Shown here in pieces: positions 5,060 to 16,259 of a DNA stretch of 64,000 bases. This DNA is from Eledone cirrhosa. Taxonomy: Eukaryota. Location: assembly GCA_964016885.1 (NCBI GenBank), contig OZ024746.1, forward strand, positions 8,990,001-9,054,000, read 5' to 3'. Each line of letters opens with the position of its first letter. The first letter of the stretch is position 1. Under the pieces are notes generated by a model, which saw nothing but the letters and a program-made list of their open reading frames with translations, made no database searches and was not told where the DNA came from. Made by a program: the position numbers and the translations under genes.

Positions 5060-6350
5060 GATCTGTGTAACACCAGGGTGATGACAAGTGCAACATATCA
5101 AACAGCTTATCACCTCACCTTGTCCACTGCCAGCTCAACATCCGCTCTAAGCCTAAGTCTAAGATGAGAAACAGCCCCCAGAAGAGGCGCAAGCATGCAA
5201 AGCTCCATCATGACATGTGACTCAAATGGCAGAGTGATGACTACCCAGCTGACGTGTTACCTGAAACACTTTGGGACCCCTCCTCCCAATAACATTATTC
5301 TGTACACTGAGAAAAAACGTGAAATCCTGGGGTTCCTCTCGGAGAAGAGTTCAGTACTCCAGGCTTACATAGTTCACCCTTCCTGCTCTCAGAAGAGGGT
5401 AGCCTTCCAGTACACCTTGAATTAAGGTTTGGTGCAGGCACCGGGAAATTCAAAACAAGTGGTAGACGAGTTTTGAAGAGAAAGTCCAGGCATTAGCAGA
5501 CACCTGGAACTATGGTTTGTTCTATCAAGCCCTGAAAGCAACCCCCGGGCCATCATACTTACCACTGTGCCGACTCTGAATGTCTGATGGAAGAGTTGCT
5601 AAATGACAAGGGCTACATACGCTGGTCTGAACACTTTCCAATTCTTTTACCACCCATCACATCGTCCATATCGCAGCAGTTTAAGCCATTCTATATCTAC
5701 CTGTGAAACGCACTTGACACAACTCCATTGTTCCGAGAAACCATACACACCCTTATACTGTTGAAAACCGTTAAAGCCTCAAGTGCTGACGGCATTCCCT
5801 CAAATGTCTGTCTCAATGGAGGGACTCCTCCACACTAAACTCCATGAATTCTTCTGCAGTTGTTGGGCGCAACGCACTCGTACTCCAGACCTCTGTAATG
5901 CAATCAGTATCACCCTTTGTAAGAACAAAGAGGGAAAGGTAGATTGCTCCCTGCTCTCCCTCAGGAAAGGTCCTGACCGGAATACTGCTCAACAGACTAA
6001 CACCTACCTTGCTGAAAACCATCTCCCCGAGAGCCTGTGTGGATATAGAGCAAAGCGTGCACCACGGACATGGTGTCTGTCTTGCGGCAACTCCAGGAGA
6101 AATGTCGTGAACAAGATAGTTGTCTGGTCATCATCTTGGTCGACTTAACCAAACCTTCGACACGATGTACAAAGATGGGAAAAGTCTGGAAAAGCTGGGC
6201 CTCCCACATAAATTTCCTGACTATTCCCCACGATAGGGAATTTGGTAAAGTCAAACTTGGAAAGAACTTGTCTCAACTCTTCGAAATCATCAACCACTTG
6301 AAGTAAGGTTGTGCTATTGCCCCGACACTGTTCTCATTATTCTACAACAT
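5060..6350 (+). pseudogene. Decayed RTE-clade LINE (end of APE domain to reverse transcriptase)
   Basis: Frameshifted peptides KASSADGIPS, PDLCNAISITLCKNKEGKVDCS, LAENHLPESLCGYRAKR, DMVSVLRQLQEKCREQ..VDLTK and LK*GCAIAPTLF match RTE/BovB-type RT motifs (LPESQCGFR, RQLQEKCREQ, GVKQGCVLAPTLF). Confidence 0.9.
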
Positions 6351-12911: not shown

Positions 12912-13329
12912 GACTGTCCAAGTAATATGGTGGTATTTATACCTTTCTGGTGGTAAGACAGGGTGTAGTGATTGGTTGATGGATTTAAGGAAAGGGAATA
13001 CTTTAAAAATTATATTTAGAGTAACAAAGGTGTGTGTGTGTCTTTGTGCCTCAGTTGCTGTCAGTCTCTTTCTTCTATTGTTACGGAAATATAAGGAAAT
13101 ATACGGAAATATACGGAAATATACCTAAATTTCGCAAACGTAAGCATTAAGCAGCTTTATCTCTCTTAATTAGCAGTAGCAGGCACATACTTATACATAC
13201 ATACCTACATACACACATATAATATCACACTCATACGCAAATACATACACATACAGATATACAATACATATATATGTGACCAGCGGCGCCGATTGGCGCC
13301 CGACAGACTGGTCGGTCAAGGTGATCAAG

Positions 13330-13594
<265 letters not shown>

Positions 13595-14047
13595 CAGTGG
13601 AGGACTGGGTCTATAAATATTGGTTGCCAGGAGATGAAGGGGGTTCCACCCACATATAGAATGCTATCATTTAATTTTTATAATGAATAAATAAGATTTT
13701 CGAAAAATACATAAATGGAAACAAAATAGTGCAGTCAAAATTTTGCGGAAAAATATCTTACCTTCTCCAATAAAAATATTATGTATATTGCGAAATCAAG
13801 AGACTTTCAATAATGACCAGAAGTCAACCCTAAATGTTCCTAATAGCTCCAGGAAAGCCATGAACACACATCTTTTTAACTTTGATTTTGAGAGTAGGTT
13901 TGTAATTATCAATTTTCACAAAACTTTTGTAGCTCGGTGGCCTACCTGGAGGAATCGTAGACGGTGGTGAACCTGGTCTGAAGTTCGATCCTGGTCTGAA
14001 GTTCGAAACCTTTTCAGTTTTTTTCTATTGGTTGTAAAATAAAAATT

Positions 14048-14616
14048 GTATATTCCTTTTCAGAAACTAATTAGTTGGAGTGAAATTTAAGTAAGTAAGC
14101 TAATTACTATAATTTTCTTATTTTACGTTTTTCATATAATTGTTCTGCATTGAACCACAAAGTTACTAAGACAAAACCTATATATTTGCTTGCATAGGTA
14201 TACATCTGTATATATATATTGGTAGATATACTAATTCTTTATAATTATCTCCAAATTATTTTGTTGAACAAAAATTTTGCCAAAATTACTACTATGGTTC
14301 ATGGTATGAACTTGGCTACTGTCTTTTTAACACCCCACTCCTCACTGATTAACCTCGATGTCACGTGATTGATTCTTTTGAATTTGCCACCGAACAAGAA
14401 GGCAGTGATTTTTTCAGAGTCTTGGAATTTAGTCCCCGCTTGCTCTTTTCCATCCACTGAATAATTATTTTTATATAAGTTCCCTGTGACAGCGCATCGC
14501 CAGGTATCTTAGCTGAGAATGACTCCCTGATGAAGTATATTCCCTTTCAGAAACTAATTAGTTGGAGTGAAATTTAAGTAAGCAAGCTAATTACTATAAT
14601 TTTCTTATTTTACGTT

Positions 14617-14625
<9 letters not shown>
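14048..14625 (+). mobile_element. Partial-tandem (about 1.2-mer, 487-bp period) non-coding element ending in (TA)n
   Basis: ~90-bp direct repeat 14048-14138 / 14535-14625 covering the 3' half of a hammerhead motif; second copy abuts (TA)n. Confidence 0.8.
14522..14568 (+). ncRNA. Type I hammerhead ribozyme motif (weak stem II)
   Basis: ACTCC-CTGATGA-AGTATATTCCCTTTCA-GAAA-CTAATTAG-TT-GGAGT: perfect 5-bp stem I, palindromic stem III ACTAATTAGT; stem II pairs poorly. Confidence 0.65.
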
Positions 14626-14688
<63 letters not shown>

Positions 14689-15129
14689 TTAAGTCTTGAA
14701 TCAATTGAAAAACAAGCATGATTTTCTCATAGGAAAACATGTAATATAAAACTATAAAATATCGGGCGTGCTAGACGAAACATGAAAGTTATTAGTATAC
14801 TCTAAAACAGCTCAAATATTCAATTCAGAATAAAGAACTGTATGCGAAATTCATTCATGCTTAATGAGGCTAACGTTTCTTAGCTATTTAAAATTTTGCT
14901 TTGAAGACTTGCATCAGTTGGTGAAATACGTTGATTGCTAACAGCAGAATACATTATTATGAGTACGGCAAAGTCAGCATTCGCTGTGTTAATTGGGTGT
15001 TGGACTAAAAAGAATCGACATATTATATCATGTTTCGAGGAGAGATTTTGTGTAAATAGCCAAGAAATTTAGCTTTGTGAATGTCCCATTTATTGAAAAG
15101 AACATAAAAAATCTCTTTGTGTTACCTCT

Positions 15130-15800
15130 GGTTAGTCGTTGATTTACAACCAAAGTCATAGAAACCATGACAACCCTAACGTTTCGGATATATGTGCATC
15201 AAATAACAATCCAGTTGTAATGTGTCCAATTTTGGTAATTGATTTAGCCAGGACCAGTTGTCAAGATTTGCTCCCTTGGATGCGTAACCTTTGTGCGTCC
15301 AGCCAACCCCTCCCACGACAGGTAACAGGCTCTTTGTCAGTTCTTGCAACGTTGGATGTAGACTGCAATCTATTTTTCGAACAAGCTACTCCAATTAAGG
15401 CCAGACCTTATCCCTTGTTATCCGAGTTCAAATCAACAAATAAAGTATTCTGGCCGACCATCTTCTCCACCTCTGCTACAATTTGAGCTCATAGTGAAGA
15501 TGAATACTTTATTTATTAGGACCAAGTTTGGGATGAGTTACACTGAAATTTCCCTTGTGTATTCAGACGACAAGGCTTTCCGGCTGATACTAGGTGAAAC
15601 TCCAAGGTAACAAGTCTAACACTTCGGGATATTCGGGTCGGTAACCTGTGTCTGGTCATCCGATATTTCCACTTCGCCAGCCTTTTCCGCTTGTCACCTT
15701 AATGTCATCGGCTTCGCATCCGGTAACGGAAACTCGGGCTCACGCATCCAGAGGAAACAGCAGCTGAATTTCTTTGCAAGCCTCTAACTTCTATAGCCTA
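15130..15800 (-). mobile_element. Possible decayed LTR-retrotransposon gag/protease region
   Basis: GC-richer island; minus frame reads LFVDLNSDNKG*GLALIGVACS...RIQGSKS*QLVLAK...TLGL, loosely like a retropepsin, but no intact D[ST]G motif. Confidence 0.2.
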
Positions 15801-16259
15801 ATGCCCTCCCCTCTTCCTCTGATCTACCCACGCTCATGCCCCATCCACGTGCACACTGAAACACATGCACCACGCTGAAATACTCACGCACGCACACTTA
15901 GATACAACAAAAATCTTGAACACATTCACTAATAAACACACACACACGTCTGCCCTTCTACACACACAATTCACACTTATCGTTGTATATTATTACGTTG
16001 CTATGACGATGTTACTGTTGTTATAATGTTTATTTTAACTTCTGCTATTTCATCGTTTGGAGTTAAGTTTTGTTTTTTCACTAAACAGCTATTTTTGTCG
16101 AAAATATGTTTATTTATATTTGATACACACAGAGAAACCACGCACATATACAATGTTAATACAAGTAGACACACACATAGAAGCCACCACCAACAATATA
16201 TACACCACTCCAACTCATGCACATACGCACTAGAAGATTTTAAAACAACAAACAACCAC

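What the first reader, a model, noticed from the sequence alone, without database searches (positions are those of the whole stretch)
14048..14625. Retrozyme-like 1.2-mer with predicted cleavage sites 487 nt apart
Seen: a ~90-bp direct repeat spanning the hammerhead 3' half flanks ~400 bp of non-coding sequence and ends in (TA)n; the upstream copy is truncated inside stem II. Known: retrozymes are non-coding units bounded by hammerheads that yield circular RNAs, and reverse transcription around a circle gives more-than-unit-length inserts. Inference: a ~487-nt circular or monomeric RNA intermediate.
Basis: partly seen in the sequence, partly recalled or inferred. Interest (0 to 1): 0.75.

Follow-up and report, generated by a model that had tools for sequence, protein, structure and literature searches.

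The report
Dead copy of a hammerhead retrozyme
This is one decayed, slightly-more-than-one-unit copy of a non-coding repeat present in thousands of copies that carries a hammerhead-like ribozyme motif and was likely spread by Penelope-like retrotransposons; it is an ordinary member of a kind of element already described in animals.

Summary
Bases 14048-14138 and 14535-14625 are a 91-nt direct repeat (89/91 identical), 487 nt apart, followed by about 30 TA units.

The repeat is not a local oddity. The 396 nt between the two copies belongs to a dispersed family, with 3223 first-look candidates and 39 other scored copies at 92-96% identity.

The family unit is 518-529 nt, not 487. The window copy has a private 35-nt deletion that removes helix II of its only complete hammerhead-like motif. 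The upstream motif lacks the catalytic half. This locus is therefore predicted to be ribozyme-dead.

Across 30 loci the family shows the marks of Penelope-like (PLE) insertion:
- copies longer than one unit that run across the predicted cleavage site;
- variable 5' ends;
- 3' ends fixed at two internal TATA sites fused to (TA)n;
- head-to-head inverted partners in 22 of 29 loci;
- tandem arrays.

The genome is rich in RT + GIY-YIG elements.

The hammerhead-like motif has the full conserved core, a 5-bp helix I and a palindromic helix III. Its helix II is about 50 nt long and shows two compensatory pairs against an 80%-identical sister family. No Rfam model recognises the motif.

Verdict: a new member of the animal non-LTR retrozyme / non-autonomous PLE class. 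A circular RNA template remains untested.

The parts
14047..14076 (+). 5'-truncated start of the copy: family positions 500-529. It holds the 3' strand of helix II, GAAAC and palindromic helix III, up to the predicted cut after 14076. There is no catalytic CUGAUGA half upstream.
   Evidence: BLAST to the reference unit L017:1422-1950. Flank compared with family copies.
14077..14535 (+). Unit body, family positions 1-465, 92.8% identical to the reference unit. It ends with helix I 5' strand ACTCC (14522-14526) and core CTGATGA (14527-14533).
14535..14536 (+). Private deletion junction. Family positions 466-500 (35 nt) are missing: the 5' strand of the helix II base stem plus the distal hairpin. 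One G is shared between the two sides.
   Evidence: The junction 28-mer occurs once in the genome at up to 2 mismatches. No helix II can form.
14535..14563 (+). Family positions 501-529: helix II 3' strand CCCTTTC, extra A, GAAAC, helix III ACTAATTAGT, U17. The predicted cut falls after 14563.
14564..14625 (+). Terminal partial second unit, family positions 1-62. It ends at ...TTTTTCATATA, one of the family's two standard 3' ends.
   Evidence: 20 of 48 examined ends stop at this base
14626..14685 (.). (TA)~30 run fused to the 3' end. It is either the target microsatellite or an RT-made tail.
14048..14138 (+). Upstream arm of the 91-nt direct repeat
14535..14625 (+). Downstream arm of the 91-nt direct repeat (89/91 identical to the upstream arm)
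13597..14046 (-). Abutting, older, 5'-truncated copy of an unrelated dispersed repeat ('U'), which has a tRNA-like head in full copies. It lies in the opposite orientation and is cut at the apex of its own long hairpin, exactly where the retrozyme copy begins. It is the flank, not part of the family.

Best explanation
Bases 14047-14625 are one copy, about 1.17 units long, of a dispersed non-coding 518-529-nt repeat family with a hammerhead-like motif, and it was likely inserted by reverse transcription by a Penelope-like element (PLE), making it a 'non-LTR retrozyme'.

**Shown**
- Family membership and copy-number scale.
- The family's more-than-unit copies, fixed 3' ends at two internal TATA sites joined to (TA)n, variable 5' ends, inverted head-to-head partners and tandem arrays.
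- The private 35-nt loss of helix II in this copy.

**Inferred**
- A reverse transcriptase primed at the UAUA site at family position 57-62, downstream of the ribozyme cut site.
- It copied back across that site on a template that was uncut or re-ligated: a multimer or a circle.
It stopped at the same hairpin base on the second pass, giving the 5' end at 500/501.
- With one motif lacking helix II and the other lacking its catalytic half, this locus is predicted to make no self-cleaved 487-nt RNA.
For: **Family**
- 3223 first-look candidates. All 40 scored hits are at 92-100% identity, on many contigs.
- A 37-mer across the motif's 3' half has 214 exact hits against 0 for the reversed control. 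That suggests roughly 1-5 thousand copies (arithmetic).

**Architecture in 30 loci (29 others plus the window)**
- 28 of 29 non-array main arms run across the predicted cut site into a further partial unit.
- 38 of 48 examined 3' ends stop exactly at position 62 (20) or 179 (18). All but one of these are followed directly by TA repeats.
- None of the 49 ends examined (the 48 plus L026, which ends at 526) stops at 529.
- 22 of 29 loci carry an inverted family segment at the 5' end.
- L029 is an array of at least 7 units.

**Match to published PLE marks**
- Partial tandems (pLTR), an inverted 5'-truncated copy, a (TA)n bias and non-autonomous head-to-tail derivatives are described in PMC8557442 (passages read).

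**PLEs in this genome**
- 10595 GIY-YIG first-look candidates. All 150 scored are over the Pfam cut-off.
- RT + C-terminal GIY-YIG ORFs of 636 and 938 aa.

**Motif**
- Full core CUGAUGA...GAAA...UU.
- 5-bp helix I and palindromic helix III.
- An unpaired base after A9.
- A long helix II that folds in three variants.
- These are features listed for PLE hammerheads in PMC4209133.
- Sister family B is 80% identical, with 34 exact pattern hits. It keeps the core but has 2 compensatory A-U to U-A pairs in the helix II base and a different distal hairpin.

**Hairpin skip/stall**
- The deletion's 3' edge and the copy's 5' end coincide to within 1 nt, just 3' of the distal hairpin.
- The junction is unique in the genome.
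- 4 of 51 arms begin at positions 493-501, against 0.87 expected. This window was chosen post hoc.
Against: - No Rfam hammerhead model matches. This holds in the window at gathering score, at E<=10 around the finding, in four loci with intact copies, and on 116 nt of an intact motif.
- The helix II base is not the canonical G10.1-C11.1 next to the core. An extra C/A and an extra A face each other.
- The unconstrained fold is no better than shuffles (z 0.10).
- Covariation rests on two lineages only. Helices I and III never vary.
- No autonomous PLE sharing the family's 3' end was found among 22 PLE loci.
- The window copy has no inverted family partner and no TA repeat on its 5' side.
- The unit (518-539 nt) is longer than the ~170-400 nt given for animal retrozymes in PMC7229834.
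- The loci sampled were the best matches to the internal 396 nt, so they favour long copies.
- The deletion could be a later DNA-level event.
Confidence: 0.72

Rival explanations
1. A ~487-nt hammerhead-processed circular (or monomeric) RNA was reverse-transcribed around the circle, giving this 1.2-mer. The 487-nt period would then be that of the RNA intermediate.
For: - Copies always run across the predicted cut site, and none of 49 examined 3' ends lies at position 529. The template was therefore uncut or re-ligated, and a circle would fit.
- Rolling reverse transcription of circles is the model proposed for PLEs and retrozymes (PMC4209133, PMC7229834; passages read).
Against: - The 487 period exists only here. 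Neighbouring motifs elsewhere lie 510-530 nt apart.
- Genomic tandem arrays exist that could give multimeric linear templates (L029; the array at C1:152.49 Mb).
- The monomer is not strongly self-paired (z -1.44).
- Repeats within a copy are only slightly more alike than repeats between copies, which gives no power either way.
Confidence: 0.3
2. The 35-nt loss of helix II is a later DNA-level deletion, from replication slippage at the hairpin. Its coincidence with the copy's 5' end would then be chance, or a shared structural hot spot. The insertion itself was an ordinary 1.24-mer.
For: - Hairpins provoke deletions in DNA replication (general knowledge).
- Only a 1-nt microhomology (G) lies at the junction.
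- Helix II length already varies in the family: the 11-nt shorter 'A-short' form is present in 21 of 49 aligned motifs.
Against: - A match of two independent end points to within 1 nt has a chance of about 0.006 for a 529-nt unit.
- Three further arms (L002, L003+ and L024) also begin just 3' of this hairpin, which points to the polymerase that made the copies.
Confidence: 0.25
3. The family is a SINE-like element moved by a LINE whose copies carry microsatellite tails. On this reading the hammerhead-like motif is incidental and has no role.
For: - 3' ends carry (TA)n, or (CT)n followed by (TA)n, like the stuttered tails of some LINE/SINE pairs.
- No PLE partner was found.
- Rfam sees no hammerhead.
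Against: - There is no fixed 5' end.
- Copies exceed unit length and form arrays.
- 22 of 29 loci have head-to-head partners whose outer ends also sit in (TA)n. These are PLE marks (PMC8557442).
- The motif's core is identical in a sister family that is 80% identical overall, and helix II shows compensatory changes.
Confidence: 0.12
4. The repeat is a local tandem duplication or piece of satellite DNA made by unequal crossing-over, with no RNA step.
For: Tandem arrays of the same unit exist (L029).
Against: - Thousands of dispersed short copies share the same two 3' end points and have variable 5' ends.
- This polarity fits copying from a fixed priming site, not recombination.
Confidence: 0.04

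Closest known systems
Animal non-LTR retrozymes (Cervera & de la Pena 2020, PMC7229834; Li, Clavereau & Pollet 2026 preprint, 10.64898/2026.07.22.740005)
   Same: - Non-coding, AT-rich units, each with a type-I hammerhead motif.
- Found as monomers, dimers and tandem arrays.
- No coding capacity.
- Co-occurs with PLEs in the genome.
- Proposed to be non-autonomous PLE derivatives.
   Different: - The unit is 518-539 nt, against ~170-400 nt in the 2020 paper. It lies within the 51-972 bp range of the 2026 preprint.
- Helix II is about 50 nt long, with an internal loop and a distal hairpin.
- The base of helix II carries a C/A-A mismatch.
- Expression and circles are untested here.
Hammerhead variants in pseudo-LTRs of Penelope-like elements (Cervera & de la Pena 2014, PMC4209133)
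   Same: - Short helix I (4-5 bp).
- Enlarged helix II.
- An unpaired base between A9 and 10.1.
- A palindromic helix III/loop 3, which implies action as a dimer.
- Motifs occur singly, as direct pairs, and as nearby pairs on opposite strands.
   Different: - Here an extra A also sits between C11.1 and G12.
- Helix III is a real 3-4-bp hairpin, not the minimal form.
- The carrier is a short non-coding unit, not a PLE with an ORF.
PLE insertion architecture, including non-autonomous derivatives such as MRC1 of Chlamydomonas (Craig et al. 2021, PMC8557442)
   Same: - Heavy 5' truncation.
- Partial tandems forming pseudo-LTRs.
- An inverted 5'-truncated copy at the 5' end.
- Association with (TA)n microsatellites.
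- Multicopy head-to-tail insertions of non-autonomous elements.
   Different: - Similarity of the 3' end to an autonomous partner is expected for such elements. It was not found here in 22 PLE loci.
- The 30-40-bp 'tail' was not examined.
Plant LTR retrozymes (Cervera et al. 2016, PMC4918200; listing and abstract seen only)
   Same: Non-autonomous, hammerhead-bearing, and thought to move through circular RNA.
   Different: Plant elements have type III hammerheads inside true LTRs, with PBS and PPT (as summarised in PMC7229834), and Gypsy-type partners. None of that applies here.
pDo500 satellite of Dolichopoda cave crickets (PMC2837043, passages read)
   Same: A repeat of about 500 bp with a hammerhead that may act in double form.
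   Different: The pDo500 hammerhead region is 49 nt (68 nt for the double form), with a short helix II. No sequence comparison could be made here.

Membership tests
Hammerhead ribozyme, type I | Conserved core C3 U4 G5 A6 N7 G8 A9 ... G12 A13 A14 ... A15.1-U16.1, H17 | tested here: met
   CUGAUGA ... GAAA ... U-U| is present in the window's downstream motif (14527-14533, 14550-14553, 14562-14563). It is also present in most of the 49 aligned family motifs and in family B.
Hammerhead ribozyme, type I | Three helices around the core, with helix I open | tested here: inconclusive
   - Family copies: helix I of 5 bp, helix III of 3 bp plus a 4-nt loop, and a long helix II all fold once the core is held open.
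- The unconstrained fold pairs core bases and scores z 0.10.
- Window copy: helix II is absent.
Hammerhead ribozyme, type I | G10.1-C11.1 pair directly closing helix II at the core | tested here: not met
   - An extra C or A after A9 faces an extra A before G12. The G-C pair comes one step further in.
- A U-U mismatch at this place is reported for the axolotl HHR_Amex2, which has reduced activity (PMC7229834).
Hammerhead ribozyme, type I | Match to a curated covariance model (Rfam hammerhead families) | tested here: not met
   No hammerhead family is listed at gathering score or at E<=10.
Hammerhead ribozyme, type I | Covariation supporting the helices | tested here: inconclusive
   - 2 of 7 helix II base pairs changed on both sides between families A and B.
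- Helices I and III are invariant.
- 92.6% of cells are paired, against 37-48% when the partners are slid.
- Only two lineages are compared.
Hammerhead ribozyme, type I | Self-cleavage at the predicted site | not testable with these tools
   Needs in vitro transcription. No RNA run was available to map RNA ends.
Animal non-LTR retrozyme | Short non-coding units, each with a type-I hammerhead, in head-to-tail repeats from dimers to multimers | tested here: met
   - L029 holds at least 7 units.
- L011 is a 2.1-mer.
- Motif positions in one array (152493869-152497083 on C1) are spaced by 528-530 nt or twice that.
- No frame above 92 aa.
Animal non-LTR retrozyme | Monomer size about 170-400 nt | tested here: not met
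   Units are 518, 529 and 539 nt. This is inside the 51-972 bp range reported in the 2026 preprint.
Animal non-LTR retrozyme | Expressed as linear and circular monomer RNAs | not testable with these tools
   No RNA holder is listed. The three runs laid are low-depth DNA contigs.
Animal non-LTR retrozyme | Co-occurrence with autonomous PLEs | tested here: met
Non-autonomous Penelope-like element | Variable 5' truncation with partial tandem (pseudo-LTR) structure | tested here: met
   The window copy is [500-529][1-465]del[501-529][1-62]. 28 of 29 non-array main arms cross the unit boundary, with many different 5' starts.
Non-autonomous Penelope-like element | Inverted 5'-truncated copy abutting the 5' end | tested here: met
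   Seen in 22 of 29 family loci. Not in the window copy, whose 5' neighbour is an inverted truncated copy of a different repeat.
Non-autonomous Penelope-like element | Microsatellite, especially (TA)n, at insertion ends | tested here: met
   Of the 38 ends at positions 62 or 179, 37 are followed directly by TA repeats. The same holds in family B, sometimes with (CT)n first.
Non-autonomous Penelope-like element | 3' end shared with an autonomous PLE of the same genome | tested here: inconclusive
   None of 22 PLE loci (12 with 1.5-kb flanks, 10 of 8 kb) shares sequence with the unit. The one nearby hit, in L051, is a separate short family-B copy. There are over 10,000 candidates, so most PLE families were not seen.
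Plant LTR retrozyme | Type III hammerheads within LTRs, with PBS and PPT | tested here: not met
   The motif is type I, with helix I open. The terminal repeat is a partial second unit of variable length, not an LTR.

The most novel reading that the evidence does not exclude
The family's genomic scars record how retrozymes are copied. Reverse transcription starts at two fixed internal UAUA sites downstream of the ribozyme cut, so the template must be a re-ligated circle or an uncut multimer. The ~50-nt helix II hairpin acts as a roadblock where the enzyme skips, stops or turns back. The window copy caught both a skip and a stop at the same base. In the boldest form, positions 465 and 501 are true RNA ends, made by a second cut that excises the helix II hairpin, and they were joined end to end by template jumping.
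Probability: 0.3. Interest if true: 0.6.

Novelty: new member of a known kind. Interest (0 to 1): 0.4.

Why it matters
Animal retrozymes were tied to Penelope-like elements mainly through co-occurrence and sequence likeness of terminal repeats. This family adds insertion-scar evidence from a few dozen loci:
- fixed 3' ends at (TA)n;
- inverted partners;
- copies that always span the ribozyme cut site.

It also shows a hammerhead variant that curated models miss, so searches based on those models alone would miss this variant. For genome annotation, the window feature is a dead repeat copy, not a source of a 487-nt RNA.

Tried and rejected
- **Rfam.** Four searches listed no hammerhead. Only chance-level miRNA and snoRNA hits on TA repeats appeared.
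- **tRNA scan.** A scan of 13000-15500 found none.
- **Cave-cricket pDo500 satellite.** Considered because of its ~500-bp unit. Its hammerhead is a short 49-nt form, so the lead was dropped.
- **Autonomous partner.**
  - BLAST of the unit against 22 PLE loci gave only TA-rich chance hits.
  - The one real hit is a family-B copy 1.9 kb downstream of a PLE ORF in L051. Four sister PLE copies lack it, so it is a separate insertion.
- **RNA evidence.** No RNA holder was listed. The three runs found are contigs of low-depth DNA from one sample. They show only that the family forms with intact helix II exist, and that the 3' flank has low depth (5-9) where the repeat's summed depth runs to the thousands. 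Their summed depths were not used as copy numbers.
- **Circle versus multimer.** Tested by comparing repeats within a copy with repeats between copies. Within-copy identity is usually 0.93-0.98 and the between-copy mean about 0.90. Under a burst-like history this has no power, so it was set aside.
- **Monomer fold.** z -1.44, so the monomer is not a clear rod.
- **5' ends at position 1.** Enrichment there would show ribozyme-cut templates. Only 2 ambiguous cases were seen (L016, L027), too few to use.
- **Helitron or MITE readings.** Rejected. There are no fixed 5' ends, and the polarity of truncation points to reverse transcription.
- **Heterologous twin priming.** Considered for the abutting repeat U. 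U copies are older (86-89% against 92-96% identity), and U abuts no other family locus, so this was not adopted.
- **Organism.** Not determined.

Full report
**1. Observation**

The repeat finder reports a two-copy direct repeat of 91 nt, 14048-14138 and 14535-14625. It is 98% identical with start-to-start spacing 487. A script counts 89 of 91 identical positions.

The second arm runs into a pure TA tract that ends at 14685.

Both arms hold CCCTTTC-A-GAAAC-TAATTAGTT followed by GGAGT. Only the second is preceded by ACTCC-CTGATGA (14522-14533). CTGATGA occurs once in 13001-16000.

**2. It is a dispersed family, and 487 is a private number**

The 396 nt between the arms gave 3223 first-look candidates in the window's own 3.0-Gb genome. 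All 40 scored hits were 92-100% identical over nearly the full length, on many contigs.

I took a real, intact copy as a yardstick: L017:1422-1950, 529 nt. Position 1 is the first base after the predicted cut.

On this scale the window copy reads [500-529][1-465][501-529][1-62], then (TA)n.

Every other copy carries about 24-36 further bases between CTGATGA(A/C)G and TATATTCC. So the window copy has lost positions 466-500.

The 28-mer across this junction occurs once in the genome at up to 2 mismatches.

Where two motifs lie in direct order elsewhere, they are 510-530 nt apart. None is 487 apart.

**3. The motif**

Family copies read:

ACUCC-CUGAUGA-(C/A)-GAAAAGG...[internal loop, distal hairpin]...CCCUUUC-A-GAAAC-UAAUUAG-UU|GGAGU

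- **Core and helices.** The whole conserved hammerhead core is present. Helix I has 5 bp. Helix III is a 3-bp stem with a 4-nt loop inside a 12-nt perfect palindrome. Helix II is about 50 nt long.
- **Folding.** With the core held open, three variants all fold to the same three-way junction. They are A-long, A-short (11 nt shorter) and the sister family B.
- **Sister family B.** It has a 539-nt unit, is 80% identical overall, and has 34 exact pattern hits. It keeps the core, helix I and helix III unchanged. In the helix II base it has GUAUGG/CCAUAC where family A has GAAAAGG/CCCUUUC. That gives two pairs changed on both sides. Its distal hairpin has an unrelated sequence.
- **Match to print.** A short helix I, an enlarged helix II, an unpaired base after A9 and a palindromic helix III are the traits listed for PLE hammerheads (PMC4209133, passages read).

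Evidence against:
- No Rfam model lists it at any threshold tried.
- An extra A sits between C11.1 and G12, so the canonical G-C pair does not adjoin the core.
- The free fold is no better than shuffles (z 0.10).
- The covariation comes from two lineages only.

I therefore call it a hammerhead-like motif that is predicted, not shown, to cleave.

In the window copy the 16 nt left between the core halves form no helix. The upstream motif has no catalytic half. The locus is thus predicted to be inactive.

**4. How the copies are built**

I mapped 30 loci: the window and the 29 best hits. This sample favours long copies.

- **Array.** One locus, L029, is an array of at least 7 units.
- **Crossing the cut site.** Of the other 29 loci, 28 main arms run across position 529 into 1 and end in a partial further unit. 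One (L026) ends at 526 in (TA)n.
- **3' ends.** Of 48 ends examined, 20 stop exactly at position 62 (...TTTTTCATATA) and 18 at position 179 (...CTAATTCTTTATA). The other 10 are scattered, several at other TATA runs. Of the 38 standard ends, 37 are followed directly by TA repeats. No end lies at 529.
- **5' ends.** These differ from copy to copy.
- **Inverted partners.** 22 of 29 loci carry an inverted piece of the same family abutting the 5' end. Both outer ends of the pair then sit in (TA)n.
- **Junction sites.** Some junctions are perfect snap-back palindromes at TAATTA sites or inside helix II (L011; L063).

Family B shows the same ends and the same direct and inverted pairs.

This set of marks is what is described for Penelope-like elements and their non-autonomous derivatives (PMC8557442, passages read).

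**5. PLEs in this genome**

- GIY-YIG gave 10595 first-look candidates. All 150 scored were above the Pfam cut-off.
- Two long frames (636 and 938 aa) carry RT plus a C-terminal GIY-YIG domain. A third, of 1096 aa, shows RT only in Pfam.
- None of the 22 PLE loci I read shares sequence with the unit. The partner is not identified.

**6. Most likely mechanism** (inferred except where noted)

1. The sense RNA carries the motif. This is shown: the motif lies on the strand defined by the fixed 3' ends.
2. Reverse transcription starts at an internal UAUA site, at positions 57-62 or 175-179, likely primed by a TA-repeat DNA end.
3. Both start sites lie downstream of the cut site, and copies continue into the preceding unit. 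The template at that moment was therefore either uncut or re-ligated.
4. My data do not separate them (one search had no power; no RNA run).
5. For the window copy, the enzyme would have copied 62 to 1 and 529 to 501, then jumped to 465. It then went on through 1 and 529 and stopped at 501/500.
6. Position 501 is the first base 3' of the distal hairpin of helix II.
7. The skip and the stop coincide to within 1 nt. The chance is about 0.006 if they were independent.
8. Three further arms begin at positions 493-501 (L002, L003+, L024). That makes 4 of 51 arms, against 0.87 expected. P is about 0.011, but the interval was chosen after seeing the data.

A later DNA-level deletion remains a fair rival for this detail.

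**7. Comparison with what is known**

The element works like, and by most tested features belongs to, the animal non-LTR retrozymes (PMC7229834). These are now argued to be non-autonomous PLE sequences (bioRxiv 10.64898/2026.07.22.740005; outline and Results section read).

It differs in three ways:
- unit length (518-539 nt);
- the very long helix II with a mismatch at its base;
- the dominance of dispersed 1.1- to 2-unit copies with fixed 3' ends.

It is not a plant-type LTR retrozyme. The supplements of these papers were not read, so I cannot say whether this species or family is already listed there.

**8. Verdict**

This is a new member of a known kind. The interest is moderate and lies in the family-level insertion scars and the model-evading hammerhead variant, not in this copy.

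Noticed in passing
window 13597-14046 (minus strand): A 5'-truncated copy of a second dispersed repeat ('U'; 2815 first-look candidates, 86-89% identity). Full copies continue into an inverted arm that reads like a tRNA on the opposite strand. The window copy stops at the apex of that long hairpin, exactly where the retrozyme copy starts. Its other end abuts (ACT)~25.
   Followed up: partly
L054-L065 (own genome, e.g. C2:125109752-125110352): Sister family B: a 539-nt unit, 80% identical to the window's family. It has the same core motif and the same two 3' end points, but a different helix II. Several copies have (CT)n between the element end and (TA)n, which suggests the tails are at least partly made during insertion.
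   Followed up: partly
L048 and L052 (own genome, PLE loci): Another hammerhead-like string, CTGATGA-T-TTC-TAAA-GAA-T-GAAAC, occurs four times near RT+GIY-YIG ORFs. It also has single unpaired bases on both sides of a short helix II. Its place in those elements was not worked out.
   Followed up: no
L011:1410-1480 and L063 near 1501: Head-to-head junctions that are perfect palindromes, centred on TAATTA (L011) or inside the helix II hairpin (L063). A snap-back of the nascent strand would give this.
   Followed up: partly
window 5783-6148: An open frame with a decayed reverse-transcriptase-like stretch, probably a LINE remnant. The whole window is very rich in TA, CA, CT and ACT microsatellites and has no clear host exon among ORFs of 120 aa or more.
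   Followed up: no
L004:999-1177: A long, near-perfect hairpin of about 180 nt that scores against several plant and animal miRNA precursor models (best 68 bits, below gathering). It is probably a MITE-like foldback.
   Followed up: no
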